Of a stretch of DNA of 64,000 bases, positions 9,843-57,594 are shown piece by piece. The DNA lies in IMG/VR virus record IMGVR_UViG_3300028048_003124; one strand, 5' to 3'. Made by a program: the position numbers and the translations under genes. The DNA is from a virus (taxonomy: Duplodnaviria > Caudoviricetes). Within the stretch, counting starts at the first letter, position 1, and each line of letters begins with the position of its first letter. The notes beneath the pieces are model-generated. The model saw only the letters and a list, made by a program, of their open reading frames with translations, was not told the DNA's origin and searched no databases.

Positions 9843-9849
9843 ATACATA

Positions 9850-10765: not shown

Positions 10766-10778
10766 TCCCTTTAAGTAT

Positions 10779-42498: not shown

Positions 42499-42624
42499 AG
42501 GAAAGATGTAATATTCCAGTGTTTATATTTTTGGGCATACTTGTATGGGTAATAGCTTCTATATGTGTGGGCGAAGCCCTACGAGAAAGTAGAGAGAATA
42601 AGTATAAAAGGGAGAGAAAAGGTA

Positions 42625-43650
42625 TTGAAGACGAAAAAGATTTCAAACCAAGAAGAAAAAGTCTTGTCGACAGAATCTTCGACTTCCTCTCGAAATAAGG
42701 GAGGAAAAGTACTATTAATAGCTATCATAGTTTTTATAATTGTGTCTGTTAGTTGCATTGGGTACCCCTTAATTTCCCAGCTTGTGAATAGCATTTGGGC
42801 AAGGGGTAGTGTTGTTGAGTACAACAAGCAGGTAGACGCTATGCCTGAGGATGTAAAAAACAAGATAATGAAGGATGCTGAAGAGTATAACAAAAGAGCT
42901 TTTACTGCTGTAAAAGACCCATTCTCCCATACAGAGGAGGATAAAGATTACGAGGACGTACTAAACGTGTACGAAGACGGTCAAATGGGTACTATTGTTA
43001 TACCTTGTATTGATTGTGAGCTGCCTATTTATCACACAACTCCAGATGATAAAGGTCTTACAAAAGGGGCAGCCCATCTATTGAATACTTCCTTACCTAT
43101 AGGAGGAGAGGGTAATCACTGTGCTATTTCGGCGCATACAGCTCTACCAGGAAAAGAGTTGTTTAATAGGTTAGATGAGGTAGTAAACGGTGATCTTTTT
43201 TATATAACTGTGCTTGATGTGACAAGAGCATATAAAGTAACAAACATAAGTATTGTTGAGCCAAATAATATTGATGCTTTGCAGAGAGTACCAGGAAAGG
43301 ACTTATGCACACTTGTAACTTGCACTCCTTATGCTGTAAACACGCATAGGTTGTTGGTAACAGGTGAGAGATCGCCAGAGAATGATAAAGATTTGTCAAC
43401 TTTACTAGAAGAGACAAAAAATCCTATAAAAGATATGTGGTGGTTGTATTTAATAATCATAGGTTTAGTTATACTAATACTTATTATCTTAGTAGCATTG
43501 GTGATTAAGCACAAGAAGTCGAAAAGCGCAAAACCACATGAGGAAGTATCAAATGCTGATAGTGTTGATGAGGGTAAATCCAGCGTAGAAGATACTATCA
43601 ACAAAGATGAAGATGGTAAAGTTGTAGAAAAGCAAGGTGAAGATAACTAA
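42625..43650 (+). CDS. srtC: class C (pilus) sortase
   Basis: DPF lid, HLLNTSLPIGG, SAHT, TLVTCTPYAVNTHRLLV, C-terminal TM; start uncertain. Confidence 0.92.
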   Translation: MKTKKISNQEEKVLSTESSTSSRNKGGKVLLIAIIVFIIVSVSCIGYPLISQLVNSIWARGSVVEYNKQVDAMPEDVKNKIMKDAEEYNKRAFTAVKDPFSHTEEDKDYEDVLNVYEDGQMGTIVIPCIDCELPIYHTTPDDKGLTKGAAHLLNTSLPIGGEGNHCAISAHTALPGKELFNRLDEVVNGDLFYITVLDVTRAYKVTNISIVEPNNIDALQRVPGKDLCTLVTCTPYAVNTHRLLVTGERSPENDKDLSTLLEETKNPIKDMWWLYLIIIGLVILILIILVALVIKHKKSKSAKPHEEVSNADSVDEGKSSVEDTINKDEDGKVVEKQGEDN

Positions 43651-44096
43651 TGGAGTTCGTAAATTCTCTGCTAAAACTGTCTAATCTTTTATCTAATAGA
43701 AATATGCTTGCAACAGTTCAAGGAGGAAACCAAAGGGTATTGCTTTCATATAACAATGAGGATGAGGATAGGCAGTGCTTACTAGATATTGGTAATAAGT
43801 GTGTAATATGTTGGTACTGTGATAACTATAATGATGTGTTATCTGCGCTACCATCTTGCTATAAAAATGTAATCATACCAATGTTACCAGATGTGTATAA
43901 ACAACAAGCAGAAGAACTAGGGTATAAGAAGTTAAACATGAAGAGTGTGTTTTTGAGACTATCTATTTCTTTAGCAAATATAGAAAAAATAGATAATCTG
44001 AGAAGGGCTTCTGTTTATAGAGATATGCTAGAAATGGTTGGTATAGATACCAGTAATATTACTATTTCAGAAACAGTATACGGTTTAGTTAGATAA
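43650..44096 (+). CDS. hypothetical protein
   Basis: ORF coupled to the sortase stop codon. Confidence 0.6.
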   Translation: MEFVNSLLKLSNLLSNRNMLATVQGGNQRVLLSYNNEDEDRQCLLDIGNKCVICWYCDNYNDVLSALPSCYKNVIIPMLPDVYKQQAEELGYKKLNMKSVFLRLSISLANIEKIDNLRRASVYRDMLEMVGIDTSNITISETVYGLVR

Positions 44097-44343
44097 CTGT
44101 TAAAAAACAGATAGATAGATAAAATCTTACTCACTTTTTCTGTTTGGAGTCTGCATAATCATTGATAGTCAATTTACTGATTTTTTACTGATTTCGTATA
44201 GATTGGTGTCATTTCTATGAGAATATCTATGGTAAATAAGTGGTAAGTTGCTAGAGATTGTAGTATGTAAGAGGTTTTATCAAAAATGGCAGATTTGTTT
44301 TTACCCTGTCTGTCTTAGAAAAAGTTAAGGGTTGGTGATTATC

Positions 44344-45174
44344 ATGTCTAAGAAACATAAAGGGAAACAATCTAAACTATTAATTGTGTTTATAATATTA
44401 CTACTTATTGTAGCAATAGGGTTTTTATTATATCCGACTGTATCTAGAATATCTATGCAAAAGACGGCAGACGGTCTAACAGAAGACTTTGACAAAAAAG
44501 TTGATAAGTTAAAAGAGGTTGGTACAGAGAGCCCATCAGAGGATGAGGATAAGAAAGAAGATACTGAAGATGGTTCTAGCTCAGGAGGATCAGGAAACCA
44601 AACGGGTACTTACATAAGTGAAGGCGCATGGTCGGGAAGAACAGAAGAAGAGTTAAGAGAGCTTATGTCCAAGCTGTATGAGGATAGTGTAGCTTATAAC
44701 AATAGACTAAAATTAAAACAAGATTTTACAGAGCCTTGGGAGTATGCAGCATTAGATCTGTCTAACTACGGTATATATGATGATATGTACGGTTATATAA
44801 GCATACCAAGTATCGATGTAAATCTTCCAATTTACCTAGGAGCGACAGAGTGGAATATGGCTTATGGGGTAACTCATTTATACAATACATCACTACCGAT
44901 AGGTGGAGAGAGTACTAACTGTGTATTATCTGGGCATACAGGTTACATTGGAAGGTATTTCTTCGATGGTTTACCTAATTTAGAGGAGGGAGACAGGGTT
45001 TATATTAAAACCTATTTTGGTGAGTTAGAGTATAAGGTTGTAGATTATCATAAGGCTATTGCATCTGATACAGATGAGATGTATATAGATAAAGGTAAAG
45101 ATAAGTTAACTTTATTCACATGTGCTGACTGGGGTAAGGTTAGGTATGTTGTAGTTTGCGAGAGGGTTGATTAA
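44344..45174 (+). CDS. second class C-like sortase (no C-terminal TM)
   Basis: HLYNTSLPIGG, SGHTG, LTLFTC...RYVV. Confidence 0.9.
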   Translation: MSKKHKGKQSKLLIVFIILLLIVAIGFLLYPTVSRISMQKTADGLTEDFDKKVDKLKEVGTESPSEDEDKKEDTEDGSSSGGSGNQTGTYISEGAWSGRTEEELRELMSKLYEDSVAYNNRLKLKQDFTEPWEYAALDLSNYGIYDDMYGYISIPSIDVNLPIYLGATEWNMAYGVTHLYNTSLPIGGESTNCVLSGHTGYIGRYFFDGLPNLEEGDRVYIKTYFGELEYKVVDYHKAIASDTDEMYIDKGKDKLTLFTCADWGKVRYVVVCERVD

Positions 45175-45445: not shown

Positions 45446-46414
45446 ATGGTACTTAAAAAACGGATTATGATTATACTATGCGTTGTATTGGCATTATTGT
45501 CATTAGCAGGATGCCAAAAAGTTGTATATAAGGGTACAACTAATCCAAATAGTCATAGTGTTGCTACTGAAGATGAGGTGGTTGCTACACCTGATTCAGT
45601 TGAAGATACTGATGAAAAAGACGCCGATAAGGGTGATGATGAAGAAGAGGAAAAGGCTACTGCAGATGAGGCTTCTAAGGACGATAAGTCTGAAAACAAG
45701 AAAGATGACGATAAGAAGGACGAAGAGGATAAGAAATCAACTGAGAAGCCTACTGAGGCTCCAACGGAAAAACCAACAGAAAAGCCTACCGAGGCACCAA
45801 CAGAAGCACCTACTGAAGAGCCAACTGAGAAAACTGAGTATGAGATTGGCGAGACTAGTAGAGAAAATCCAGCTCCAAAGGGAACATGGGTTGATTATAA
45901 AGTAAGAGATTATAATACTTTGGAGATGTTTACTACAAAGGTTAAAATAAATGACATTACAACACAGTCTGAAGATGAGGATTATGTAAAAGAGGTATTA
46001 GACGATTACAATGAGTCCCATCTGGTAAAGTTGGATACAAAAAATATGTCTGCTAAGATTGAGATTGTTGTAGCAGATATAGAAATGAAAATACCAAAAG
46101 GTGAGAGCGTAGAAGATAGATTAGGAGCTCCTCACCCGATAAGTTTTGATATTGTACGTCCAAAGGGTATTGATTATCGGGATAAAGATGGTGATAAAGT
46201 TAAATTTGTCACATACGTTGGTAAATTTGAGGAGTATTCAACAACTTGTTCCGCAGGTGATACTGTAAAAACTAAGCTTATTTACGGAATGGTAAAGGGT
46301 TTTGATGATTACTATATAAAAGTCACCTCTTTCTCTGATTTTGACGGAGGGGATTGTGACTATGCATATCTAAACATTAAAAAGGAACCAGTAAAAGTAC
46401 ATAAGGATGACTAA
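45446..46414 (+). CDS. lipoprotein with acidic and TEKP/TEAP linker
   Basis: Lipobox LAGC, low-complexity linker. Confidence 0.8.
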   Translation: MVLKKRIMIILCVVLALLSLAGCQKVVYKGTTNPNSHSVATEDEVVATPDSVEDTDEKDADKGDDEEEEKATADEASKDDKSENKKDDDKKDEEDKKSTEKPTEAPTEKPTEKPTEAPTEAPTEEPTEKTEYEIGETSRENPAPKGTWVDYKVRDYNTLEMFTTKVKINDITTQSEDEDYVKEVLDDYNESHLVKLDTKNMSAKIEIVVADIEMKIPKGESVEDRLGAPHPISFDIVRPKGIDYRDKDGDKVKFVTYVGKFEEYSTTCSAGDTVKTKLIYGMVKGFDDYYIKVTSFSDFDGGDCDYAYLNIKKEPVKVHKDD

Positions 46415-46482
46415 ACTTTTACTATCAAAATAAGAGTTTGTTTAAAAAATTTATAGATTTTTTAACTTTTTTCTAGAAGGTA

Positions 46483-46511
46483 TTGCAACTATTTCTAAGT
46501 TGGTGTATAAT
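46483..46511 (+). promoter_or_regulatory. sigma-A type promoter of the RNA island
   Basis: TTGCAA-17-TATAAT preceded by an A/T-tract UP-like element. Confidence 0.75.
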
Positions 46512-46644
46512 AGCAGTACCGTAAGGGAGTTAGTCGTTAGTGGCTACTCTTTGAGGATAGTAAGTCGCAATAATCATTTAATAAGTTGACGGGTTTGGTT
46601 TCTGTTCCTGATACAATTGTAAGTGGTTTTGTGATTTAATATAA

Positions 46645-47229
46645 TGTTCCTTGACAATTGAATAAATACCTTTGATTAAGTGGTAACTCAGTGAAGAAGG
46701 AAGTGTCACTCCTGCTGAGATGGGTTTGCGATTTTGAGACGGGCGATATTTAGTAAGGATACTTCTAAGTGGAGGTCGAGATATAGTAGTGATGCTATTG
46801 AAGCTGTTTGCGTGTAATGTAAACAGATCTGAGAACCCAGTGCTGAGTATATCATTGTAAAAAGTAATTTCGATGTGACGAAGCCGTAATAGACGTCTTG
46901 TATGGCAGAATAAGATCGGTATGAGAAAGAATCCTAAAGAGATCTAAGCTTGAGGAAGTTTATTGGTCTGTAGGAAAAACCTAACTAAGGCTAACTTGAT
47001 TGGTGTTGAACCACGAAAGTGGGTATAAGTTTCAAGAAATGTACTTCTGCTAAAACCGCCAATATTAGAAGAAGCACCAAGGAGGTGCCAGTTTTAGTGA
47101 CTGTGGAAGTTGTGGGTAAATTAGTCCTACATACTATCAAGTAGTATTGACTGAATATTGCAATGGTATATAAGGTAGCTACAGTTGTAGCACCACGATT
47201 AAGGGTATTTATTCAATTGTCAAGGAGCA
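46645..47229 (+). ncRNA. ROOL-like large structured RNA (~585 nt)
   Basis: 32-bp terminal helix (29 WC + 3 G-U), no ORF in the track, internal hairpins, heads a tRNA cluster; size fits ROOL. Confidence 0.65.
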
Positions 47230-47364
47230 GCGGTGGTAGTTTATATAAAATACCAGACTGTTTTCTCGATTGTTATGTAAAAACCGAAGATCCGAAAAAC
47301 TTGTAACCCCTGTTACAATTACAGTCTGGAGAACTTCTATTAAAGAAGCCACCGTTTATTATAA

Positions 47365-47441
47365 GGGCTTTTAGCTCAGTAGGTTAGAGCAGCTGACTCA
47401 TAATCAGCAGGTCTAGGGTTCGATCCCCTAAAAGCCCACCA
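47365..47441 (+). tRNA. tRNA-CAU (probably Ile2, possibly elongator Met)
   Basis: Cloverleaf; gctga-ctcataa-tcagc; CCA; overall resemblance to Ile2 tRNAs. Confidence 0.9.
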
Positions 47442-47451
47442 TTGATAATAT

Positions 47452-47610
47452 GCGAGTTCTGAAAGAAGGTTCAGCTCCCTTTGTGGAGGTAAGAAGTAAA
47501 AACGGCATGATGAAAGGTATCGTAACCATGGCTCTACGGTATTTAGTAATTGGATGAGTCTCCCTTACCAATACAAAGGTTTGGCGGTTCGAATCCTGCA
47601 GCTCGTACCA
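47452..47610 (+). ncRNA. tRNA-like RNA A with ~100-nt expanded anticodon arm
   Basis: GCGAGTT/AGCTCGT-A-CCA acceptor, D-like hairpin, GGTTCGAATCC T-loop. Confidence 0.6.
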
Positions 47611-47959
47611 TACATATCAAAACCTGATGATACACCGTAATATAGCATAACGGCGGAAGAATGTTTCATTGAAATCCTTAATGTATCACAAACCGTAAGC
47701 AGCCCCGAACACAGAAACAACCTGTTCTCTGGGCAATCCCATAAGCGCCACACCATGCTGTGCAGAAAAGGTATCTGCGACAAGCCTTGAATAATGACAG
47801 ACGCTTAAGTAATATTTCTGGATTGACAGACCACAGACGTAACAGATACGGAAAGCACTTACAAGTGCCACCCAGTTTAAGGTCTGGGTGGACAAACTAT
47901 TTTATATGGAGATTCCGTAAGAGGTGTAGGTAGTTAAAATCTACTAATCTCCACCAAAG

Positions 47960-48350
47960 AGTGTGACATAGATTAACAAGGTCTATGGTGTAACTCATAC
48001 CGTGTTCAGAGACGGTGGATGTAATGTTCAAAACTGAAATAGATATCCGTCTAAGCCTTGAGATATGTCGGAATCGAAGGAGGGTACTCAAGGGAGTTCA
48101 CAGTGCGACAGGCAGGTGACATACCTATACTCTAGAAGTAGGTACTTGTTATTTAGACTAATGGGCAACATTGGTAGGCTTCTTTTAGAAGATAGTTGCC
48201 AACTGGAAGGGGCGTAAGGCATTTCCAGTCCAAGCCGCACGCAAAAGGGTTCTGAAATGGCGGCTTAGTAGAACCGAGAATGTACACAGGCTTTGAAAGT
48301 GTACTCGGTAGGTGTTCATGAGATTGATATAATTCCTACCGAAGCCTAAC
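47960..48350 (+). ncRNA. candidate structured ncRNA with pseudoknot
   Basis: Multiple helices; taggctt/aagccta closing stem; ggttct/agaacc loop pairing. Confidence 0.5.
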
Positions 48351-48352
48351 GA

Positions 48353-48538
48353 CGGGTAATAGTTTAATGGTAAAACACTTCCCGAGGGTAAGAAAGTTAG
48401 TATAACAGCAGGCTCCATTACTCGAATGTGAGGGTTTGGTAATTTATACTAGGAGTAAGGTATAATTACAAGTTATTTGGTGTAAGCCCATCTTATCTTT
48501 GTATGGAGGAAACGTAGGTTCGAGTCCTGCTTATCCGT
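48353..48538 (+). ncRNA. tRNA-like RNA B with 122-nt insert in place of the anticodon loop
   Basis: Canonical acceptor, D, anticodon and T stems; loop 48383-48504. Confidence 0.7.
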
Positions 48539-48548
48539 AATAAAACAT

Positions 48549-48635
48549 GGGGGATTGGTGTAATTGGCAGACACAAGGGATTTAAGTTCCCTTGAAGGCA
48601 ACTTCGTATGGGTTCAAGTCCCATATCCCCCACCA
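48549..48635 (+). tRNA. tRNA-Leu(UAA)
   Basis: Cloverleaf; aggga-tttaagt-tccct; long variable arm; CCA. Confidence 0.93.
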
Positions 48636-48650
48636 GATGATAGGTTTTTT

Positions 48651-49026
48651 ATGGCAGGAATAAAATACGTTTTTAGTAACTACTCAGAAGAGGATTTGAA
48701 AAGCCTTATAGCAAGTTGTACATCTATTGCGGAGTTAGGTAGAAAATTAGGCTTAAGTGGCAGAAATGTGTACAATGTAGGTGAGAGGTTACAGGATTTA
48801 TATCCTGAAGAATTTGCTTATTATACTGGATTGCCATGCTTTAACAGATAACTATAGAGGTAAGAATTCTACCAACAGGTGTTATGTATCAGACGATAAA
48901 ATACTAGAAGTTATCAAGACTAAAGAAAATGTTAGGCAGGTACTATTAGAGCTGAATTTACCTGCTTCTGGTCATTCTTATAAAAGGGTTAGAGAATTAG
49001 CCAGAAGTATAGGAATTTATTGGTAA
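48651..49026 (+). pseudogene. degenerate HNH homing endonuclease
   Basis: Two overlapping frames: YSEEDLK...SIAELGRKLGL N-terminus and NL...CH..TDNYRGKN HNH tail; core appears deleted. Confidence 0.65.
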
Positions 49027-49040
49027 TAAATATAATAGTA

Positions 49041-49071
49041 GGTGTGGGTTCAAGTCCCATCACCGCTACCA
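49041..49071 (+). pseudogene. orphan tRNA 3' half
   Basis: gtgggttcaagtcccat T-arm + caccgct-a-cca with no adjacent 5' half. Confidence 0.7.
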
Positions 49072-49136
49072 CAGAAGGGCAAGAACATTCACTTGCCCTT
49101 AAACTTTATTTAAAGTTTGAAGGTGTAATATTGTAG

Positions 49137-49381
49137 ATGAAGAATGTAGTTATTTTTATCATAGCTCTATTACTTGTACTGACTTTTGTGTTCGGTGCAA
49201 GCAGTTGTAGTACTCACGATAGTCGGCAAAATGTAGGTACTCCAGATGAGGTACAAAATGGAATGTAGGAACACTAAAATCGGGTATTACTCCGTTATAT
49301 GATAAAAATGGTAATATAATGAAGTACCAAGAGTTTGAAGACGCTGTTAAATACTACAATATAAGGGTTTATGATGATTAG
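49137..49381 (+). pseudogene. frameshifted small lipoprotein gene
   Basis: MKNVVIF...ASSC signal stops at 49270; SGITPLYDKNG... continues in another frame. Confidence 0.5.
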
Positions 49382-49448
49382 GGTTGGTTAGTGTTAAAAT
49401 TGATTAATTCTCAATGTTTCATTATAGTAAAAACTTTTATTAAGCCTA

Positions 49449-49477
49449 TTGCATTTTGTGGCAAGATATGGTAAAAT
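49449..49477 (+). promoter_or_regulatory. sigma-A type promoter
   Basis: TTGCAT-17-TAAAAT with TG extension, upstream of tRNA-Gly. Confidence 0.65.
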
Positions 49478-49513
49478 AAGTATGTTCTTAAAAAGTTAAA
49501 TTTTAAGAAGTAT

Positions 49514-49587
49514 GCAGGTGTAGTTCAACGGTAGAACATCAGTTCCCCAAGCTGAGTACATGGGTTCAATCCCCATTATCTGCTCCA
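49514..49587 (+). tRNA. tRNA-Gly(CCC), atypical C33
   Basis: Cloverleaf; tcagt-tccccaa-gctga; U73 + CCA. Confidence 0.85.
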
Positions 49588-49987
49588 CAGGCGTTATTAA
49601 ACGTCTGTTTGATGGGCGTCATACCAGTGCTTTTTGCGAACATGTATTGTGTCCCTGTCGCCCTGATATGGGTAGTAAGATGCGAAAGCATTTAGCTATA
49701 GAAAAACTCTTGTTGAGAGGTTCTTCTTCGTGGCTATTAGGGAGAGCCTCTCCCCCTAAGGGTTGTAATTGGTTTTAATACATATATAATATAACTTATA
49801 TTTGTATTAAAGCTTATTACAACACGGGTGATAAGCTTTAATGCGTCCAACACATGTAGGCTGATGTGTGGTACAGGCATTTGTTCACTTGGTTTATGCC
49901 ATGTGAACCCTCCAACCAAGTGGGGTTCTGAGCTCATTTAAGGACCCCACAATTTTTATAAAATAACTAAAAATTTTCTTAATGTAC

Positions 49988-50016
49988 TTGCAATATATGG
50001 TAATTTATGGTAAGAT
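49988..50016 (+). promoter_or_regulatory. sigma-A type promoter
   Basis: TTGCAA-17-TAAGAT with TG extension, upstream of tRNA-Pro. Confidence 0.65.
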
Positions 50017-50082
50017 ACAGACATCAAAATAAAACCTTAGTATTTGTCTTATGAAAGACGAGGGTACAAAGCGTTTAAATAA

Positions 50083-50157
50083 CGAGGTGTAGCCCAGGGG
50101 TAGAGCGCTTGGTTTGGGACCAAGATGCCGCAGGTTCGATTCCTGTCACCTCGACCA
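50083..50157 (+). tRNA. tRNA-Pro(UGG)
   Basis: Cloverleaf; cttgg-tttggga-ccaag; C1-G72, A73, CCA. Confidence 0.95.
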
Positions 50158-50292
50158 CGAGTTATAGTAATTTGTTTTGTCGGTAGCCATACGATTTGTT
50201 TTTAGGAGATCTCGATAAAATCTCAAAAACCAAAAATGGAGTTGGGGTGTGCTTAATAAATATAAGCATAACCCCATCTCAAGTGTCGATAT

Positions 50293-50391
50293 GCTAATGT
50301 TAGTGTAACTGGAAGCACCCCACTGGAAAGGCGAGCGGTATGCCGTCATAAGCAAATGTGGCAGTAGCAGGTTCGAGTCCTGTCATTAGCA
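50293..50391 (+). ncRNA. tRNA-like RNA C with ~34-nt anticodon loop
   Basis: GCTAATG/CATTAGC acceptor, gtgt/gcac D-stem, ccac/gtgg stem, GCAGGTTCGAGTCCTGT. Confidence 0.6.
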
Positions 50392-50397
50392 AACAAA

Positions 50398-50762
50398 AGT
50401 GAGGAATCGGTAAAGGTTTCAGACTCACAGAGGTATGCCAGAAGCTGTACCATTCAGTTCCCTCTCCTTTACAGTGAGCAAGAGGCATATTGCTTGATGG
50501 GCACAAGGGTTGAAAGTGTCCATGGATACCCTAATGTGTAAGGCGGTGTGGGTTGCAAGCCGTCGTCAAGATAGTTGATACCCGTGAATACTGCCGTATA
50601 AACGGTGCGCTGAAAGCGGCAGTGAGGTTGGTGTCGGAAATATCAACCAATAGGCAATGTATGCAGTTGGTAGAAAGCATACTCACAAATATATGTGTAC
50701 CAACAACGCATTCAGCCCCTGAGAGAATGCATCTAGGGAGTTTTAGAGTTAAACTCCCTACG
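50398..50762 (+). ncRNA. candidate multi-hairpin ncRNA
   Basis: Consecutive helices atgggcac/gtgtccat, actgccg/cggcagt, ggttggtgt/atatcaacc, gttggta/taccaac, tagggagttt/aaactcccta. Confidence 0.5.
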
Positions 50763-50775
50763 ATGGGGTAAATAA

Positions 50776-50851
50776 TCCTCATTAGCTCAGTCGGTAGAGC
50801 ATGCGGCTGTTAACCGCAGGGTCGTTGGTTCGAGTCCAACATGGGGAGCCA
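50776..50851 (+). tRNA. tRNA-Asn(GUU)
   Basis: Cloverleaf; tgcgg-ctgttaa-ccgca; G73 + CCA. Confidence 0.95.
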
Positions 50852-51091
50852 GGAGAGTCCTATAATCTAACTATCGATTACTGAAACTGGTTATGGTGAG
50901 AGATGTCTAAGGGCTAATGGATCAGTTAGATGGCTTCGTATCATCTGGTTAGGCTACCCAGACAATACGTAGAGTCTAAGTCTGCATAGTCCCTAAGGCT
51001 AACCGAAGGACAGGGAGTAAGTCATACAAGTTAGGGTATGTATCGTGATCACAGTATAGCCCTCGTACTGAAAACCTAACAGAGGGTACAC

Positions 51092-51165
51092 GCAGGTATG
51101 GTGTAAGGGTAGCACAACAGCCTTCCAAGCTGTTGGTGAGGGTTCGAATCCCTTTACTTGCTCCA
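51092..51165 (+). tRNA. tRNA-Gly(UCC)
   Basis: Cloverleaf; acagc-cttccaa-gctgt; U73 + CCA. Confidence 0.95.
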
Positions 51166-51192
51166 TAATAATTAATTGGGGAGTTGAAAATA

Positions 51193-51390
51193 ATGGTAGG
51201 TTGTATCATCTCTTTTTTATTCGGAGGAGTGTTCGGAGTTGGTATCATGTGCATTATGAACATAAGCAGCGCTAATTCCAGAATTGAGGAGGCTATGATG
51301 AAAAATGAGAGAAGCCACGAAGAGGGAGTACATATGAACAATGATGAAAGTTGGGATTTTTACTTCAGCGGTGGTAATGTTAAAAAGTAA
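51193..51390 (+). CDS. small membrane protein (DUF3789-like)
   Basis: FLFGGVFGVGIMCIM hydrophobic segment; GGGGAG RBS. Confidence 0.55.
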   Translation: MVGCIISFLFGGVFGVGIMCIMNISSANSRIEEAMMKNERSHEEGVHMNNDESWDFYFSGGNVKK

Positions 51391-51410
51391 TCTTTAAAAC
51401 CATAATAAGT

Positions 51411-51447
51411 ATTGACCATCTTCTTTTTAAGGATGGTCAATTTTTTT
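51411..51447 (+). terminator. intrinsic terminator ending the RNA island
   Basis: attgaccatctt / aaggatggtcaat plus T-run. Confidence 0.85.
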
Positions 51448-51540
51448 GTAATAATGTATTAAAATTATAGAAGTGTATGTTTACTTACATACATTGTAAT
51501 AGATATTTTGTTGTTTATTATATCTGTTTAAGGAAGAAGT

Positions 51541-53004
51541 GTGTCTACTATGGATATACAAGTGAAGAACCACGAATGGAGAGGTATCGACAAAGTAAAG
51601 AGTATGTTAGATAGCTTTGATGATAACATAATTGTCTACTTTGATCCAGACGTAGACGGAATGATATCTGGGTATTTTGTTTGCAAGTTTTTAAAAAGTA
51701 GCGGTAAAAAGTACTCATGGTATGTTAATTCTAATAGAAGTCATGATTGGAGCATACCTGTAGAAAAACTCAAAGGCATGAATGTCATTGCAGTAGATTT
51801 TATGATATCCAGAGATACTATAAAAGACTTAGTATATAACGGTTGTAATATAGTAAGTATGGACCACCATGTAAATCAGAATGCTCAAATATGGATAAAT
51901 CACGCTGGAAAGAGTGGTATTGTAATAAACAATCAGTATCCTTTTGAGGACGAAGACGGTAGGTACTTATCAGGGGCAGGGGTAGTTTTTGAGACCCTAA
52001 GAAGTATAGATCCAGATTTTGACACTGAAGAGAATAGGGCATTGGTTGGCTTAACGTTACTATCTGATGTGTGTGATATAGAAAACCCTTTAGCAAAAGG
52101 GTATTTATATAAGTTATATAATCATAAAATGAAGGGTTATGTTAAATATTTAATAGAAAATACAATAGGTGAGAGAGATTTCGGTTTTGGAGTACCAAGG
52201 CTTGATAGAAAGTATGTAGATTTCAAATTCTCCCCAGCTATAAACTCTTGCTTAAGGTTTAATAAGGAAGACGAGGTTGTAAGATTCTTTTTAGGTAGTG
52301 GTAATCTGGACTTAAGTTACCATACAAGGCAGAAAGAGTTGGTAAAGGCTATGGTACAGTCTGCAACGGTGCGAGAATTTTCTAACTTGCGTGTTGTTTA
52401 TGTCCGAGATTGGGAGGTATTAACTACAGAAGATATATCTGTACTTTCAAATTTCATAGGTTTGATTGCAAGTAGATTTCTTGATGGTAAGAGGTCTGTA
52501 ATATCGTACCTAATAAGCAAAAACGACTTGGGAAATGGGTATGTTAAGCGTGCAAGTTTTCGTGGTAATGTGAATGGAGTAGATTATCTCAGTATGCTTA
52601 ATGGTATATTAACTGGTGTAGGACACCCATCAGCATTTGGTATAGTTAGTATAAGCCCATCTAAAGTCTTGTTTAATAAGGCAAATGACTTATGCAAGAA
52701 AGCAGAAGGTTTAAATACTAACCAAGTAAATATAACTCCTGTTGCCAATTTGTCTATATTTGCAGCAACGAAGGGTAAAGGCATGGCAGAATATAATATG
52801 TATTGCCTATCTCAGAATAGTAAGTATATACGGTACATAGGTAACAATTACAAGATAAAGAGAGAAGGAGCTAATTTTGTAAGGTACTTAGTAGATGGTA
52901 TAGAAGTTATAAGCTTTGATACAACATTAACTTTTTCAACTGGTTTAATATATCCAATATTTGAGAGAGGCTATGTGTATTATTATCTTCAAGGAGATAA
53001 TTGA
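51541..53004 (+). CDS. RecJ-like DHH family exonuclease
   Basis: YFDPDVDG, AVD, MDHH, INN, LSGAGV, LLSDV, GHPSAFG. Confidence 0.85.
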   Translation: MSTMDIQVKNHEWRGIDKVKSMLDSFDDNIIVYFDPDVDGMISGYFVCKFLKSSGKKYSWYVNSNRSHDWSIPVEKLKGMNVIAVDFMISRDTIKDLVYNGCNIVSMDHHVNQNAQIWINHAGKSGIVINNQYPFEDEDGRYLSGAGVVFETLRSIDPDFDTEENRALVGLTLLSDVCDIENPLAKGYLYKLYNHKMKGYVKYLIENTIGERDFGFGVPRLDRKYVDFKFSPAINSCLRFNKEDEVVRFFLGSGNLDLSYHTRQKELVKAMVQSATVREFSNLRVVYVRDWEVLTTEDISVLSNFIGLIASRFLDGKRSVISYLISKNDLGNGYVKRASFRGNVNGVDYLSMLNGILTGVGHPSAFGIVSISPSKVLFNKANDLCKKAEGLNTNQVNITPVANLSIFAATKGKGMAEYNMYCLSQNSKYIRYIGNNYKIKREGANFVRYLVDGIEVISFDTTLTFSTGLIYPIFERGYVYYYLQGDN

Positions 53005-53145
53005 TATAATTGTTAAAATGTATATACATAGAGTATGTTAAATTAGAACTTAGAAGTATTACAGTAGTTTCAAGAATGTACTTTTTGCGTAAGTTTTTCT
53101 ATGAGCTGTACTTTATGTATATCTTATTTTTTAGGAGGTATTTAT

Positions 53146-54312
53146 ATGATTACAGGAACCGCTAAGTTGGTGGTAGACTTAGGTAACTCCGAAACAAGAG
53201 TTATGACTCTGTTCGGAAAAACTGCCAAGGGAAATCCTAAGAAAAGAACTTCTGTGCTTAGCAATAGGTACAGTGTTATTTCGGAGGATAAACTAGAGAC
53301 ATATTTGAGCGGTGGTACTTACACAGATGAGAACTCTGCTGTGTTTAGATTGCCTAATGGAGCTCTTTACTGCAACGGTGATCTTTGCAATCTTGAGATG
53401 GCGCAGACTTCTGTAAGACCCTCGGCTCTTGAAAAGAAGTATGAGACACTGATTTCCAAGCTTTCTTTGATCAATGCTATCAAACAAGGTATTGAGGATG
53501 TCGCAGTGTTTTCTAATTGTGATATGGAGAGTGTCGATGTAAACTGGGAAATGTATCTGCTGTTGCCCCCAGAGGATATCGACGCTGGTGCTAAGCAGAT
53601 CGCTGATATGGCAAAAAGTATCACAGAGATTGACTTCGTTCTGCCTAAGTACAAAACTAATATCAACATCACAAAGGTAAATGTATATCCTGAGGGTATG
53701 TGTGCCTTTTTTGGTGTTATCTTTGAAAGGAAGGGTGTACCCCGTCCCGATTACAGGTACCTCATTGAGACTGGCGAGTCTACGGTTATCTTTGATATCG
53801 GTGCAGGTACAACAGATATTGTTATGGTAAAAGGAAGTCAGGTAATCCAGAGTTCCAGATTTACCAAGGAGATTGGTGGCAATAATGTTCATCGTATTGT
53901 TCAGAGATCTCTTAGAAACAAGGGTATTTCTCTCCCCGAGGAGGTTCTTAGAGAGGGTGTAAATACTGGTTATGTTCGAAGTGGTTCTCGTACTGTAGAT
54001 ATTACAGAGGATATCGCAGAGGCTAAGAGAACGGTTTCCAACCAGCTTGTAGATGCTGTACAGGAGTTTTTCGAGAGCTCTATGATTAGCATTCGCACTA
54101 TTGCTAATATTCTTATTTGTGGTGGAGGCGCTGAAGAGTCAGCAAATGAGAATATTGCTCCGATTGCTAATTATGTAGTAGACTACATGAGACGGTTAAC
54201 TCCCGATTTGAAGAGAATTGAGATGCCCAGTACAGTGACATCGGATGGTGAAGAAGAAAAGCTCTCACCTCGTATGCTAAACATTATTGGAGCGGGAATT
54301 CTTGCCGAATAA
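53146..54312 (+). CDS. ParM/StbA-like actin-fold ATPase
   Basis: VVDLGNSETR (phosphate 1), YPEG, FDIGAGTTD (phosphate 2), ICGGGA (adenosine); AGGAGG RBS. Confidence 0.88.
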   Translation: MITGTAKLVVDLGNSETRVMTLFGKTAKGNPKKRTSVLSNRYSVISEDKLETYLSGGTYTDENSAVFRLPNGALYCNGDLCNLEMAQTSVRPSALEKKYETLISKLSLINAIKQGIEDVAVFSNCDMESVDVNWEMYLLLPPEDIDAGAKQIADMAKSITEIDFVLPKYKTNINITKVNVYPEGMCAFFGVIFERKGVPRPDYRYLIETGESTVIFDIGAGTTDIVMVKGSQVIQSSRFTKEIGGNNVHRIVQRSLRNKGISLPEEVLREGVNTGYVRSGSRTVDITEDIAEAKRTVSNQLVDAVQEFFESSMISIRTIANILICGGGAEESANENIAPIANYVVDYMRRLTPDLKRIEMPSTVTSDGEEEKLSPRMLNIIGAGILAE

Positions 54313-54331
54313 ACTATAAAGAGAGGTAAAT

Positions 54332-55489
54332 ATGTTTAAGAGATTGATTTCATTTTGTCTTTGCTTGCTGTTAATGGTAGGAGTGTTGGTAGCTTGCAAT
54401 AACAATAAAACCCCTGAGGGTAAAACATCAGAAACAACTACATCAGGTGGAAGCGTTGATGGTGTATACAATAAACCAGAGGACGTGGCAAGGGATTTCA
54501 TTAACGCAGTAATTGGCGGTGAGTATGATACTGCCATTACCATGTTTGATATTGATAATACAAAATCCTTTATTACTGGAGAAGATATGTCATTCTTCCT
54601 ACCAAGAAGTAAGTTTACAGCTTTACTTGGAGATAGTGTAAAGGGTGCTGACTTAAAGCTAACACCCGAGGGTACTTCTGGATCAACAAGTCAGCTTGTA
54701 TCAGCAGTATTTTCTAAAGATGGTACTGATACCGTTAATATGGAGATTCCTGTTGTGCAGGGCGATAATGGTTGGCGCATTGATGCCCCTGAATTTTATT
54801 ATAGCAATTTCAGATTCTTGGCTCCCTCAGGAGATGTGACAGTTACTGCAAACGGTAAACCTGTAGATAAGAGTTATATCACTGATGATGCAGCAGGTGG
54901 TACAAAGAAGGCTGTAATATACACTCTTCCTTATGTTGGAAAGAAGGAGGTCAAGGTAAAGGTATCTTGTGATAATTTTGAGAATGAGGTAACAATGCCT
55001 GCGACTTCTGAAAATACTGAGTTTGATGATTATAATACGTTATACTACTTAAAAGCAGAAGAGCGAGAAGAGGTAAATAAAAGTATCAAAGATGCTTGGA
55101 ATGGTATGTACAAAGATTGGCTGAGCGGTAAGAATGCGACTGATCTTTTAAAGTATCTGTCCGATGATGCTGATCCAGACATCACCAACAGGGTAGTAAG
55201 CGGATTTAAGTCAATGTCGGATACTGGTTCAAGCGGTAATGATAATTTTAATCTAGTTGAAGTAAACCAGGGTAGCGATAATAATTATGTTTTTTATGTA
55301 TCAGATGACATGGTTTATGTCAACTTTAATTACAAGTTAACTTGGAATTACAAGCTAATGGATTGGTCTCAGGAGACTAAGAGAAAATCTAGTATTATTC
55401 TAAAGAAGGTAAACGGTGAGTATAAAATCTACCAGTTGGTAGACGAAAAATTGTTTACTGAGTGCAATAATTTCACAAGCGAGTGGTAA
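54332..55489 (+). CDS. lipoprotein
   Basis: Lipobox LVAC; PEDVARDFINAV...GWRI NTF2-like segment. Confidence 0.8.
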   Translation: MFKRLISFCLCLLLMVGVLVACNNNKTPEGKTSETTTSGGSVDGVYNKPEDVARDFINAVIGGEYDTAITMFDIDNTKSFITGEDMSFFLPRSKFTALLGDSVKGADLKLTPEGTSGSTSQLVSAVFSKDGTDTVNMEIPVVQGDNGWRIDAPEFYYSNFRFLAPSGDVTVTANGKPVDKSYITDDAAGGTKKAVIYTLPYVGKKEVKVKVSCDNFENEVTMPATSENTEFDDYNTLYYLKAEEREEVNKSIKDAWNGMYKDWLSGKNATDLLKYLSDDADPDITNRVVSGFKSMSDTGSSGNDNFNLVEVNQGSDNNYVFYVSDDMVYVNFNYKLTWNYKLMDWSQETKRKSSIILKKVNGEYKIYQLVDEKLFTECNNFTSEW

Positions 55490-55499
55490 TTACAGGTAA

Positions 55500-55528
55500 G
55501 AGGGCTTCATTATGTGGAGCCCTCTCTC
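55500..55528 (+). terminator. terminator-like hairpin
   Basis: gagggcttca / tggagccctc. Confidence 0.65.
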
Positions 55529-55620
55529 ATAAAAATAAAGAAGTGTATAATGTTTTATGTTTTGCGTTTATGCATTTCTTTATTTTCATGAGAGATATCA
55601 ATTAGGTGGTGTGATAGTAT

Positions 55621-57594
55621 ATGGCAGTACTTTCAATATATTTAGCAGGTGTAAGCACAACGGGTATTGAACTGGTAACAGAGGCAGCTACTCAGGCTTT
55701 TGGTGAGTGCAGTGTAGAGGAGTTAAACAGGGATAACCTAAGATTCAAAGTAAGAACGGGTACTAAAGACGCTTCCGTTGTGCTTATTGTTTTAGACGAT
55801 ACTTCAATGACTGAGTGTAAAGATATAGAGAATGGTCTATACTCCTCGGAAAAGTTTTATAATTACAAAAATGATAACGATTTGGTAGCTTTTCTAAATA
55901 GTGAATTTGATCTGTCATTAGAGGCTCCAAATGATAAATTAGAAGTTTCAGATAGCATCTCTTCAGATTCTAGAATCGAAAACGATGATAGGGCTGAGAT
56001 CATCGAGATGTACCAGAGTCAGCTGGATGATAGGGACAATATTATTAAGACGCTAAACTCCACAATTAGTGAGTTAAAGAGCATCATATATGGAGAAGGG
56101 TACACTGTTAATGATAAAGAAGCTGAGGAGTTAAAATCTAAGAATTTGGCTCTAATAAGTCAGATGTCTGACATCAACCGCCAGCTAGAGGTTGTACAGG
56201 ATACCGTAAAAGACAAAGATGCAGAGATAGACAAACTGTCTAGCGAAGTAGACAGGTTGGCAGATTTGGTAGCCAAGTATGAGTCAACCATTAAAAATCT
56301 TAACGCAGATCTCACACAAGAGAGATCAACTTCCTCACAGAAATCAGGGGTAATAAGAGATAAAGACAAAGAGTTAGAGAAGTTAAGAGCCCGTATATCT
56401 GGAATAGAAGGGTCTATTGATAAAGCAAAGACGCTGGAAGTAGAAGTAACAGATTATAAAAATACCATAAAGGATCTTCAGGCGACTATAAAGGGGTTAG
56501 AGTCCACTATAAGTTCTAAGGACGATGAGATAGAGAGACTGCGCAACAATGTAGAGTCAGAAGGTAGATTAGGCGAACAGGCTCTCCAGTATCGCACTTT
56601 ATTAGATGAAGCAGTATCGGATAAGGCAGAGTTGCAAAAGAGGGTATATGAGTTAGAATCTAGTTATGAAGTATTGGCTGAAAAGCATGACTCTCTTGTT
56701 GATGAGTTAAATGAGTACGATACTAAGTTTGATAGCTTATCAGCAAAATATACCGAAGTGGAAGGGTATTTAACTCAGGCTAATATGGATAAAGTGGCTC
56801 TGCAAGAAAAGATCAGGGTATTAACTGAGAGTGGGCATATTAGTGATGATGCTGACGGCTTCTCCTCTGAGATTGCTGATTTAAGGCGCAGATATGCTGA
56901 GCTTCAAAATAGTACCTTTAATGTAATAGGTACAAAATCACTGCCAAAAAGCAGTGTAAGGGTGCCGATAATGAACAGCCTATTACAGAGGTTGAAAAAT
57001 GTAAGATTTCAGTTCTCAGGAAGCTCTGAAAGCAAGAAGGGTACATATAAGTGTATCTATAATGAGTTTGTAGGGGTACAGAATGAGAAGTTTTTGATTG
57101 TTGATGTAACATCTGAGACGGCTATTGACTATGTTTTTGGTATAAGAAAAGTAGTAGATGGTTTACCGTGGTTTGCATCAGGCGGAGGTGTTCAGAAGTA
57201 TTTATCTCCAACGTGTTTACCTCATGTAAAGGTATTAATGCCCAAATTAGGGTATATAAATGATAGTTATTTTCTAACAATAGACTGGGCTAAAAGATTG
57301 ATGGAGTTAGAGAGATCTGGATATAGAGTTGTTGTTTATTGTGGTGATATCTCCAACTTAGTAGGAAGAGTACTATTCGAGAATTTTTCAAGTTTAGGAA
57401 ACACTGCAATTTATGTGCATGGTAATGCTTTAGGCTCAAGATCCGTTATTGCTAATTCGAGTGGTTTAACGGGTATTCGTTCGGCAATGGTTGCATATTT
57501 CGATTATGATAAAAATATGTCTAATTTCTTATCTATTATGGAGAGAAAGTGCACATGTAAGGTTATTTCTTATATTAAAGATGTTTCTAAGTGA
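55621..57594 (+). CDS. long coiled-coil protein with C-terminal alpha/beta domain
   Basis: About 300 aa of heptad-rich sequence flanked by globular ends. Confidence 0.8.
   Translation: MAVLSIYLAGVSTTGIELVTEAATQAFGECSVEELNRDNLRFKVRTGTKDASVVLIVLDDTSMTECKDIENGLYSSEKFYNYKNDNDLVAFLNSEFDLSLEAPNDKLEVSDSISSDSRIENDDRAEIIEMYQSQLDDRDNIIKTLNSTISELKSIIYGEGYTVNDKEAEELKSKNLALISQMSDINRQLEVVQDTVKDKDAEIDKLSSEVDRLADLVAKYESTIKNLNADLTQERSTSSQKSGVIRDKDKELEKLRARISGIEGSIDKAKTLEVEVTDYKNTIKDLQATIKGLESTISSKDDEIERLRNNVESEGRLGEQALQYRTLLDEAVSDKAELQKRVYELESSYEVLAEKHDSLVDELNEYDTKFDSLSAKYTEVEGYLTQANMDKVALQEKIRVLTESGHISDDADGFSSEIADLRRRYAELQNSTFNVIGTKSLPKSSVRVPIMNSLLQRLKNVRFQFSGSSESKKGTYKCIYNEFVGVQNEKFLIVDVTSETAIDYVFGIRKVVDGLPWFASGGGVQKYLSPTCLPHVKVLMPKLGYINDSYFLTIDWAKRLMELERSGYRVVVYCGDISNLVGRVLFENFSSLGNTAIYVHGNALGSRSVIANSSGLTGIRSAMVAYFDYDKNMSNFLSIMERKCTCKVISYIKDVSK

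What the first reader, a model, noticed from the sequence alone, without database searches (positions are those of the whole stretch)
46483..51447. A 5-kb RNA island: tRNAs alternate with many unexplained structured RNAs
Seen: three promoters, six canonical tRNAs, three tRNA-like RNAs, a minihelix and at least five ORF-poor structured blocks, ending in one strong terminator. Inference: tRNA and tRNA-like units may act as punctuation, with RNase P/Z cleavage releasing a battery of ncRNAs from polycistronic transcripts. Together with the 0.9-kb RNA at 9850, this would be an unusually RNA-rich system for a mobile element.
Basis: partly seen in the sequence, partly recalled or inferred. Interest (0 to 1): 0.8.

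Follow-up and report, generated by a model that had tools for sequence, protein, structure and literature searches.

The report
Phage RNA island: ROOL, tRNAs, tRNA-shaped RNAs
A 5-kb almost gene-free stretch of a ~229-kb rumen phage-like element holds a known giant RNA (ROOL), six ordinary tRNAs and at least five conserved, unnamed structured RNAs, three of them built on a tRNA body. It is a much enlarged version of the stable-RNA and tRNA cluster long known in phage T4.

Summary
Window 46483-51447 has no long ORF under code 11, code 4 or TAG=Q. It holds six canonical tRNAs, three tRNA-shaped RNAs, one acceptor/T-arm minihelix and several structured spacers, and it ends in a strong terminator.

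- The first block is a ROOL RNA (Rfam RF03087, 129.7 bits), a family already known to sit beside phage tRNA islands.
- The island is probably three transcription units, not one.
- It also carries small ORFs, including remnants like the DNA-binding part of an HNH homing endonuclease.

Several spacers are conserved. TL1+E5' and E3b recur at 86-90% identity in an unrelated 251.5-kb phage. TL2 and G135+TL3 recur in a relative whose neighbouring DHH protein is only 70% identical. Compensatory base changes number 9-11 per module, against 0-2 in slid-register controls. None of these modules matches any Rfam 15 family. H380 has support from one close relative only. I240, E3a and the minihelix stay unresolved.

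The proposed mechanism is co-transcription, with RNase P and RNase Z cutting at tRNA and tRNA-like units. The closest precedent is T4 rnaC/rnaD with segB.

An earlier follow-up in this scan described TL1-type RNAs in a 251-kb gut-type phage.

Verdict: new RNA families within a known kind of phage locus.

The parts
46483..46511 (+). Promoter P1 (TTGCAA-17-TATAAT with TG extension). A second 10/12 match lies at 46617-46645, just before ROOL.
   Evidence: sequence
46650..47226 (+). ROOL RNA. The Rfam match is 46663-47208; a 22-bp closing helix joins 46650-46671 to 47205-47226.
   Evidence: RF03087, 129.7 bits (gathering score 99.1), model positions 1-574. Syntenic ROOL in L001, L002, L004, L006, G001 and G004 scores 122-275 bits.
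47227..47364 (+). Hairpin-rich spacer (Bhp) between ROOL and tRNA-Met. Weakly conserved.
   Evidence: z -3.45; 68% identity to L001 over half its length
47365..47441 (+). tRNA-Met (CAT), CCA encoded
   Evidence: 73.5 bits
47451..47611 (+). TL1, a 161-nt tRNA-shaped RNA. It has a 7-bp acceptor stem, a D-like hairpin, an imperfect T-arm and A-CCA. The anticodon arm is replaced by a long helix carrying a sequence-conserved distal domain.
   Evidence: 94% identity to L001; 89-90% (together with E5') to the unrelated 251.5-kb phage G006; compensated acceptor and arm pairs
47612..47900 (+). E5', a ~290-nt multi-helix RNA that always directly follows TL1 and ends in a GC-rich hairpin
   Evidence: Conserved with TL1 in L001 and G006. 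TL1+E5' together have 117 predicted pairs, 6 of them compensated.
47901..48154 (+). E3a, a variable spacer found only in L001. In L001 a ~210-nt insert containing a 65-aa ORF lies at the E5'/E3a border.
48156..48350 (+). E3b, a ~195-nt compact multi-helix RNA that sits directly upstream of a tRNA or tRNA-like unit
   Evidence: 86% identity in G006, where it abuts tRNA-Leu(CAA). 52 pairs, 9 compensated against 0-1 in slid controls, 0/500 shuffles.
48353..48540 (+). TL2, a tRNA body (acceptor, D-arm, T-arm) whose anticodon stem runs on into a 16-bp helix bearing a ~100-nt domain. No CCA is encoded.
   Evidence: Conserved in L001 (98%) and L004 (69%). 47 pairs, 11 compensated against 0-2 in slid controls, 0/500 shuffles.
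48549..48635 (+). tRNA-Leu (TAA)
48654..49026 (+). Two short ORFs (48654-48851 and 48781-49026) that resemble the DNA-binding modules of phage HNH homing endonucleases. No nuclease domain is present, so this is probably a decayed homing-endonuclease gene.
   Evidence: PHROG 14736 E 2e-4 and PHROG 10822 E 9e-3; Pfam gives only sub-threshold hits
49036..49071 (+). Acceptor/T-arm minihelix with A-CCA. It resembles the 3' halves of tRNA-Leu genes. Status is unclear: a remnant or a processing signal.
   Evidence: T-arm motif; Rfam tRNA 19.9 bits, below threshold; BLAST matches to tRNA-Leu 3' ends
49075..49100 (+). Terminator-like hairpin that ends unit 1
49137..49268 (+). 43-aa ORF with a signal-peptide or lipobox-like N-terminus. 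Its status is uncertain.
   Evidence: translation read by eye; no family match
49450..49478 (+). Promoter module P2 (TTGCAT-N17-TGGTAAAAT) upstream of tRNA-Gly(CCC)
   Evidence: Sequence; module conserved in L004, L006, L009 and L010; below the scanner's cut-off
49514..49587 (+). tRNA-Gly (CCC)
49588..49960 (+). F1/F2, two very stable hairpin-rich segments that end in a terminator-like hairpin at ~49905-49950
   Evidence: z -5.6 and -7.2. 64% similar to L001 7242-7547, which lies on the other side of tRNA-Gly there.
49989..50017 (+). Promoter module P3 (TTGCAA-N17-TGGTAAGAT) upstream of tRNA-Pro
   Evidence: Sequence; conserved in L004, L006 and L009
50083..50157 (+). tRNA-Pro (TGG)
50158..50292 (+). 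G135. An ~85-nt segment is nearly invariant in four contigs, more so than the adjacent tRNA-Pro. It is followed by a hairpin of variable length that shows covariation.
   Evidence: helices 5 and 6: 6 compensated pairs
50293..50391 (+). TL3, a tRNA body with a 34-nt structured loop in place of the 7-nt anticodon loop. It has no U33 and no encoded CCA.
   Evidence: Rfam tRNA 33.1 bits; not called by ARAGORN; the acceptor stem covaries at 3 pairs
50392..50775 (+). H380, a multi-helix RNA. L001 carries an 80-nt insert at one position in it.
   Evidence: Found only in L001. 105 predicted pairs, 6 compensated, 13 one-sided changes, 0 broken.
50776..50851 (+). tRNA-Asn (GTT)
50852..51091 (+). I240, a spacer of unresolved nature
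   Evidence: 98% identical to L001, as are the flanking tRNAs; folding z +0.48; no relative elsewhere
51092..51165 (+). tRNA-Gly (TCC)
51184..51390 (+). 68-aa ORF encoding a small hydrophobic (probably membrane) protein, with an ATG at 51193 after GGGGAG
   Evidence: weak PHROG 18806 match; 63% DNA identity in L001
51411..51441 (+). Strong intrinsic terminator (12-bp stem, T7) that ends unit 3

Best explanation
The island is the RNA gene cluster of a ~229-kb phage-like element from the rumen or gut.

It is read from three sigma-70-type promoters as three polycistronic precursors:
- Unit 1 (46512-49100): ROOL, tRNA-Met, TL1+E5', E3a/E3b, TL2, tRNA-Leu, the endonuclease remnant and the minihelix.
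- Unit 2 (~49480-49950): tRNA-Gly and the F hairpins.
- Unit 3 (~50020-51441): tRNA-Pro, G135+TL3, H380, tRNA-Asn, I240, tRNA-Gly and a small membrane-protein ORF.

Host RNase P cuts at the 5' side of every tRNA and tRNA-shaped unit. RNase Z (where no CCA is encoded, as in TL2 and TL3) or 3' exonucleases (where CCA is encoded) finish the 3' sides. The precursors are thereby diced into ROOL, six decoding tRNAs and a set of non-decoding stable RNAs.

In TL1, TL2 and TL3 the tRNA upper body (acceptor stem plus T-arm) serves as a built-in processing and stability handle. A cargo domain sits where the anticodon loop should be. This matches T4 species 1 RNA and resembles engineered tRNA scaffolds.

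Shown: the ROOL identity, the tRNAs, the absence of coding capacity, the conservation of modules and the compensatory changes in their helices.
Inferred: co-transcription, the cleavage sites, the stability of the products, and that the cargo RNAs act in trans during infection. Their targets are unknown.
For: - ROOL identity.
- ROOL sits at the head of the syntenic island in L001, L002, L004, L006 and G001.
- The modules are contiguous with tRNAs, and no promoter- or terminator-like site falls inside 47227-48636 or 50083-51165.
- P2 and P3 are conserved promoter modules.
- TL2, TL3 and TL1 keep their acceptor and T stems through compensatory changes while the anticodon loop is absent.
- Module identity to L001 is 94-99% for TL1, TL2 and G135, against 78% for ROOL and 63-76% for the flanks.
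- TL1+E5' and E3b are 86-90% identical in phage G006, in which no DHH homolog and no ROOL were detected.
- T4 has the same layout: tRNAs, segB, rnaD and rnaC. T4 rnaC has a T-arm and acceptor-like ends around a long insert.
- From established knowledge: the acceptor/T-arm minihelix is the minimal substrate of RNase P, RNase Z and the CCA-adding enzyme.
Against:
- Each alignment has only 2-4 sequences, and the structures were derived from those same alignments. This inflates the contrast with the slid-register controls.
- The window's TL1 T-stem pairs at only 3 of 5 positions.
- I240 has no folding signal, and its conservation may be a recent recombination tract.
- E3a, H380 and I240 have relatives only in the closest contig.
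- RNase Z is inhibited by an encoded CCA, so the 5' ends of E5', G135 and I240 are not defined by simple punctuation.
- The high identity between unrelated phages could reflect recent horizontal transfer rather than constraint.
Confidence: 0.6

Rival explanations
1. The tRNA-shaped RNAs are decoys rather than carriers. They keep the tRNA elbow and acceptor end in order to bind and titrate host proteins that recognise tRNA shape. Candidates are anticodon nucleases and other tRNA-targeting defence systems, modification enzymes, the CCA-adding enzyme, EF-Tu and synthetases. Lacking a cleavable anticodon loop, they would survive the encounter.
For: Three non-homologous units all lose the anticodon loop but keep the acceptor and T arms. 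The unrelated phage G006 that shares TL1 encodes an RtcB RNA ligase, a tRNA-repair enzyme, which hints at conflict over tRNA cleavage.
Against: The inserted domains are themselves strongly conserved in sequence (TL1 distal domain, TL2 insert, TL3 loop). A pure decoy would not need that. No defence or anti-defence gene was examined next to the island. RtcB lies about 100 kb from the RNA region in G006.
Confidence: 0.15
2. Most of the non-tRNA sequence is non-functional. On this view it consists of decayed tRNA genes disrupted by insertions, scars of homing-endonuclease activity, and spacers carried along by recombination between phages.
For: A homing-endonuclease remnant and an orphan tRNA 3' half lie in the island. 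Content and order differ between relatives. Insertions occur in L001. I240 has no folding signal. E3a, H380 and I240 are lineage-specific.
Against: There are 9-11 compensated pairs per module, against 0-2 in slid registers. H380 has 19 substitutions in predicted stems and none breaks a pair. The first 85 nt of G135 are nearly invariant while the adjacent tRNA-Pro varies. TL1+E5' and E3b are retained in an unrelated phage.
Confidence: 0.12
3. TL1, TL2 and TL3 are intron-containing tRNA genes, or a reduced tmRNA, that become functional in translation after processing.
For: The inserts sit in or at the anticodon arm. TL3 passes the Rfam tRNA threshold. The relative L002 carries a true tmRNA between ROOL and tRNA-Met. 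TL1 contains a short ORF-like stretch.
Against:
- No group I, group II or tmRNA model matches, even at E up to 5-10.
- Inserts of 27 and ~122 nt are too short for self-splicing introns.
- Position 33 is not U in TL2 or TL3.
- No G3:U70 pair is present in any acceptor stem (read).
- The ORF-like stretch in G135 is interrupted in L004.
Confidence: 0.04

Closest known systems
ROOL RNA (Rfam RF03087) next to phage or prophage tRNA islands
   Same: The block at 46650-47226 is a full-length ROOL by covariance model. It heads a tRNA cluster on a phage-like element from rumen-type samples, which is the published context (PMC5737381; bioRxiv 10.1101/2024.12.08.627333).
   Different: Here ROOL is only one of about ten RNA genes. 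It appears to be co-transcribed with several other large structured RNAs that have no family. Its score (130 bits) is low compared with relatives (197-275 bits).
Phage T4 tRNA gene cluster with rnaC (species 1 RNA), rnaD (species 2 RNA) and segB
   Same: It is a phage tRNA cluster that also encodes small stable RNAs of unknown function and a homing endonuclease. T4 rnaC, like TL1 and TL2, has a canonical T-arm and acceptor-like termini around a ~100-nt insert.
   Different: No sequence similarity was seen. T4 has two such RNAs of 119-139 nt. This island has three tRNA-shaped RNAs plus blocks of 190-380 nt and ROOL, and non-tRNA RNA outweighs tRNA roughly 6 to 1.
tmRNA (tRNA-like domain plus helix 2)
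   Same: TL1 and TL2 share the architecture of an acceptor stem, D-like loop and T-arm, with a long helix replacing the anticodon stem and leading to a body domain. A relative (L002) has a true tmRNA at the equivalent place.
   Different: There is no Rfam or ARAGORN tmRNA call, no G3:U70 pair, no conserved tag reading frame and no pseudoknot ring. The bodies are only 85-120 nt.
tRNA punctuation and tRNA-like 3'-end processing (mitochondrial transcripts; MALAT1/mascRNA); engineered tRNA scaffolds
   Same: tRNA-shaped units are embedded in a longer transcript where RNase P and RNase Z cleavage would release the neighbouring RNAs. Cargo is inserted at the anticodon arm of a tRNA body.
   Different: Those systems are eukaryotic, organellar or synthetic. 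Processing here is inferred, not shown.
Bacterial Y-RNA-like YrlA (tRNA-mimicking module with Ro/Rsr)
   Same: It is a non-coding RNA that mimics the tRNA elbow, and it is also found in phages.
   Different: In YrlA the free ends lie in the Ro-binding stem and the acceptor-like stem is closed (from my own knowledge), whereas here the ends are at the acceptor stem. There is no Rfam YrlA match. No TROVE (Ro) gene was found in five related or module-sharing phage records.

Membership tests
ROOL RNA (RF03087) | Covariance-model score above the curated gathering score, over the whole model | tested here: met
   129.7 bits against 99.1, model positions 1-574, E 1.8e-26
ROOL RNA (RF03087) | Genomic context: phage or prophage, next to tRNA genes | tested here: met
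   tRNA-Met lies 157 nt downstream. The syntenic ROOL in IMG/VR record G001 scores 256.7 bits; a ROOL also occurs, away from the DHH locus, in the DTR record G004 (275 bits).
ROOL RNA (RF03087) | Assembly into an octameric nanocage | not testable with these tools
   Known from cryo-EM of other members (bioRxiv 10.1101/2024.12.08.627333)
Canonical tRNA (RF00005), applied to TL1, TL2 and TL3 | Cloverleaf with acceptor, D and T arms | tested here: met
   TL2 and TL3: all three arms are found by alifold, with covariation. TL1: acceptor stem and D-like hairpin, but an imperfect T stem.
Canonical tRNA (RF00005), applied to TL1, TL2 and TL3 | 7-nt anticodon loop with U33 and a readable anticodon | tested here: not met
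   TL3 has a 34-nt loop, TL2 a ~122-nt insert, and in TL1 the loop is absorbed into a long helix. ARAGORN calls none of them, even with introns allowed.
tmRNA | Match to a tmRNA model, G3:U70 alanine identity, and a tag reading frame | tested here: not met
   No ARAGORN tmRNA call. Only a 20.5-bit sub-threshold 'tmRNA_permuted' match at 50130-50249. The 3:70 pairs are G-C (TL1), G-C (TL2) and U-A (TL3). The ORF-like stretches are not conserved.
Group I or group II intron in a tRNA gene | Ribozyme core detectable, and an insert long enough to self-splice | tested here: not met
   No intron family matches at E up to 5-10. The inserts are 27 and ~122 nt.
GOLLD or other named large RNAs (OLE, HEARO, raiA, Drum) | Match to the Rfam model | tested here: not met
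   A full Rfam 15 scan of the window at gathering score, and of the island at E up to 5, returns only ROOL and tRNA.
T4 rnaC-type stable RNA of a phage tRNA cluster | Encoded inside a phage tRNA cluster on the same strand, with no ORF, and with a tRNA-like T-arm and termini | tested here: met
   Layout of the island, compared with the T4 annotation and the rnaC sequence
T4 rnaC-type stable RNA of a phage tRNA cluster | Accumulates as a discrete stable RNA processed from the tRNA precursor | not testable with these tools
YrlA / Y RNA with Ro | Rfam match and a Ro (TROVE) partner gene | tested here: not met
   No Rfam match. TROVE is absent from G001-G006. The window's own full genome could not be searched.

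The most novel reading that the evidence does not exclude
The island is a coordinated RNA-only toolkit. The ROOL nanocage would be made together with a battery of tRNA-handled cargo RNAs (TL1+E5', E3b, TL2, G135+TL3, H380). These would either be its clients or act as a multi-target anti-defence or host-takeover set. tRNA-shaped handles would then be a general natural strategy of large phages for producing and stabilising functional RNAs.
Probability: 0.15. Interest if true: 0.85.

Novelty: new variant of a known kind. Interest (0 to 1): 0.6.

Why it matters
ROOL is one of the largest bacterial or phage RNAs with a solved structure but no known function. Here it sits at the head of an apparent operon with at least four other conserved structured RNAs, which gives concrete candidates for partners or clients.

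The three tRNA-bodied RNAs show that the T4 species 1 design, unexplained for decades, recurs in independent versions in large gut and rumen phages. The inserts are non-homologous: TL1 against TL2 gives a similarity z of 0.2-1.2.

The modules are short (100-450 nt), have defined ends and are supported by covariation. They are therefore tractable for Rfam-style family building, RNase P and RNase Z assays and cryo-EM.

Tried and rejected
- Alternative genetic codes (TAG=Q, table 4) open no + strand ORF in the blocks.
- ARAGORN with introns and lowered thresholds adds nothing.
- Rfam at E up to 10 on 47600-48360 gives no family.
- Blastn against INPHARED phages and PLSDB plasmids finds only the tRNAs.
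- The window's own genome is not held.
- GTDB genomes hold neither the G135 motif nor a DHH relative.
- The JGI metagenome scan for the G135 motif gave one contig, L009.
- IMG/VR scans for exact motifs of G135, I240, E3b and H380 gave nothing.
- Folding z-scores of the blocks (-0.7 to -3.5) overlap those of coding controls (-0.3 to -3.5). Thermodynamics alone therefore decides nothing except for F1/F2. My first z-score script timed out.
- The long closing helix that alifold drew around the whole 740-nt block is rejected. G006 has E5' and E3b 9 kb apart, so these are separate RNAs.
- TL1 and TL2 are not demonstrably paralogous.
- I searched RF01998 thinking it was GOLLD. It is a group II intron domain model, so says nothing about GOLLD. 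The full Rfam scans cover GOLLD.
- nhmmer profiles of every module found no further copies among the held loci.
- The literature search for tRNA-like RNAs in jumbo phages gave nothing relevant. One search failed on a short term.

Full report
**What is in the sequence.**
- The stretch 46414-51541 lies between a PT-repeat protein gene and a DHH-family gene. It has no ORF of 100 aa or more on the coding (+) strand.
- Reading TAG as Gln or TGA as Trp does not open one.
- ARAGORN and Rfam agree on six tRNAs: Met-CAT, Leu-TAA, Gly-CCC, Pro-TGG, Asn-GTT and Gly-TCC.
- A T-arm motif scan finds ten + strand sites in the island.
- A 12-bp terminator with a T7 tail closes the island at 51411-51441.

- The first 'unexplained' block is a full-length ROOL RNA (RF03087, 129.7 bits against a gathering score of 99.1). 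A 22-bp closing helix is visible in the sequence.
- Published work describes ROOL as encoded in phages and prophages, often next to tRNA islands, and as forming a nanocage (PMC5737381; bioRxiv 10.1101/2024.12.08.627333).
- Besides the final terminator there are terminator-like hairpins at 49075-49100 and ~49905-49950 (by eye). Conserved TTGCA-N17-TGGTAARAT promoter modules lie before tRNA-Gly(CCC) and tRNA-Pro. The island therefore reads best as three transcription units.
- It also contains small ORFs. Two short frames at 48654-49026 weakly match the DNA-binding parts of phage HNH endonucleases (PHROG 14736, E 2e-4). There is also a 43-aa signal-peptide-like ORF and a 68-aa hydrophobic ORF.

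**What the element is.**
- No whole genome is held for the window.
- The DHH protein downstream of the island has at least 380 relatives, many on contigs of 100-275 kb. The window's own contig is 228,994 bp.
- Sample names point to ruminant-gut studies. This is my reading of the record names.
- Relatives keep the synteny of RNA island, DHH, actin-like partition protein and coiled-coil protein.
- IMG/VR lists relatives as viral. G001 (DHH 63% identical) is marked provirus. G004 and G005 (DHH about 30% identical) are 225-239 kb, have direct terminal repeats and are 100% complete by CheckV.
- I call it a jumbo-phage-like element. Earlier first-reader notes on the same genome mention a conjugation-like locus, so its nature is not settled.

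**Are the spacers conserved?** Yes for several, and unevenly.
- Against the closest relative L001 (DHH 83% aa), ROOL is 78% identical and the flanks 63-76%. In contrast TL1 is 94%, TL2 98%, G135 99% and I240 98%.
- TL2 and G135+TL3 also occur in L004, L005 and L009, where DHH is 70% identical.
- TL1 with the ~290 nt that follow it (E5'), and separately the ~195-nt E3b, recur at 90% and 86% identity in G006. G006 is a complete 251.5-kb phage with direct terminal repeats in which no DHH homolog and no ROOL were detected.
- In G006, E5' and E3b lie 9 kb apart, and E3b abuts a tRNA-Leu. The '740-nt block' is therefore at least three separate RNAs.
- E3a, H380 and I240 have relatives only in L001.

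**Are they structured?**
- Folding z-scores are unhelpful except for F1/F2 (-5.6 and -7.2), because coding controls reach -3.5.
- Comparative evidence is better.
  - TL2: 47 pairs, 11 with compensatory changes, against 0-2 in slid registers.
  - E3b: 52 pairs, 9 compensated against 0-1.
  - G135+TL3: 62 pairs, 10 compensated against 0-2.
  - In all three, no shuffle reached the observed covariation score.
  - H380 (two sequences): 19 substitutions in predicted stems, none breaking a pair.
- Caveats: each alignment has 2-4 sequences, and the structures were derived from the same alignments.
- I240 has no folding signal (z +0.48). It sits in a tract where the flanking tRNAs are equally identical to L001, so its status is open.

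**The tRNA-shaped RNAs.**
- TL2 has a covarying 7-bp acceptor stem, a D-arm and a T-arm. Its anticodon stem continues into a 16-bp helix bearing a ~100-nt domain.
- TL3 has all four stems but a conserved 34-nt structured loop. It has no U33 and no encoded CCA.
- TL1 has an acceptor stem, a D-like hairpin, an imperfect T-stem, A-CCA and a long helix bearing a nearly invariant distal domain.
- They are not intron-bearing tRNAs, tmRNAs or Y RNAs (3:70 pairs read from the alignments).
- The inserts of TL1 and TL2 are not detectably related.
- The best precedent is T4. Its tRNA cluster carries segB, rnaD and rnaC. rnaC itself has a canonical T-arm and acceptor-like ends around a ~100-nt insert.

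**Mechanism.**
- The modules touch the tRNAs, and no promoter- or terminator-like site lies inside units 1 and 3. Co-transcription is therefore the simplest reading.
- Ordinary tRNA maturation would then necessarily cut the spacers free.
- The acceptor/T-arm minihelix is the minimal substrate for RNase P, RNase Z and the CCA-adding enzyme (established knowledge). The tRNA bodies of TL1-3 are thus plausible processing and stability handles for their cargo domains.
- What the cargo does is unknown. A decoy role against tRNA-targeting defence is the main rival.

**Verdict.** This is a real and unusually large RNA gene island of a known general kind: a phage tRNA cluster with ROOL and co-encoded stable RNAs. 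It contains several RNA families that are absent from Rfam 15. Earlier agents of this scan reported TL1-type RNAs in a 251-kb gut-type phage, which agrees with my independent recovery of G006.

Noticed in passing
window 9849-10773: The ~920-nt ORF-free, GC-rich block upstream of tRNA-Leu(TAG) has no Rfam match at E up to 5. It has no relative in five IMG/VR phage records. Its 3' third has only a weak nhmmer similarity to L004 9017-9241 and L009 (E 6e-5 to 1e-3).
   Followed up: partly
L002 8526-8937: A relative (DHH 71%) carries a full tmRNA (Rfam 90 bits, tag GKNVTFHPALLATLSSRKAVA) between ROOL and tRNA-Met. The window has only a 138-nt hairpin spacer at that place.
   Followed up: partly
L001 6249-6446 and L001 ~8680-8760: The closest relative has a 65-aa ORF inserted at the E5'/E3a border and an 80-nt insert inside H380. 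This shows that these RNAs tolerate insertions at those sites.
   Followed up: partly
window 50526-50540 and 51025-51039: A 15-nt stretch of H380 is 87% complementary to a stretch of I240 across tRNA-Asn. Both are invariant in L001, so there is no covariation test; it could be chance.
   Followed up: no
L028 (G006 224514-225500): The unrelated 251.5-kb phage that shares TL1+E5' and E3b encodes an RtcB-family RNA ligase (161.7 bits), a tRNA-repair type enzyme. It lies far from that phage's RNA region.
   Followed up: no
L006 4318-8904; L006 6135-6202, 6712-6786, 8255-8327: Another relative (DHH 70%) has its own 4.6-kb island without called genes. It holds ROOL, six tRNAs, three low-scoring tRNA-like hits (29.5-41.7 bits) and 270-770-nt spacers that are not similar to the window's. 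The architecture is conserved while the content turns over.
   Followed up: partly
L007 8361-8433: ARAGORN calls a tRNA with a two-base anticodon ('ta') directly after tRNA-Gly(TCC) in a relative.
   Followed up: no
window 51541-57594 and syntenic loci: The DHH phosphoesterase, Alp7A/MreB-like actin and 657-aa coiled-coil protein always follow the RNA island. In relatives an FHA / PP2C phosphatase / Ser-Thr kinase trio lies further downstream.
   Followed up: no
window 42565-45174: Two sortase-domain proteins and a PT-repeat protein lie just upstream of the island.
   Followed up: no
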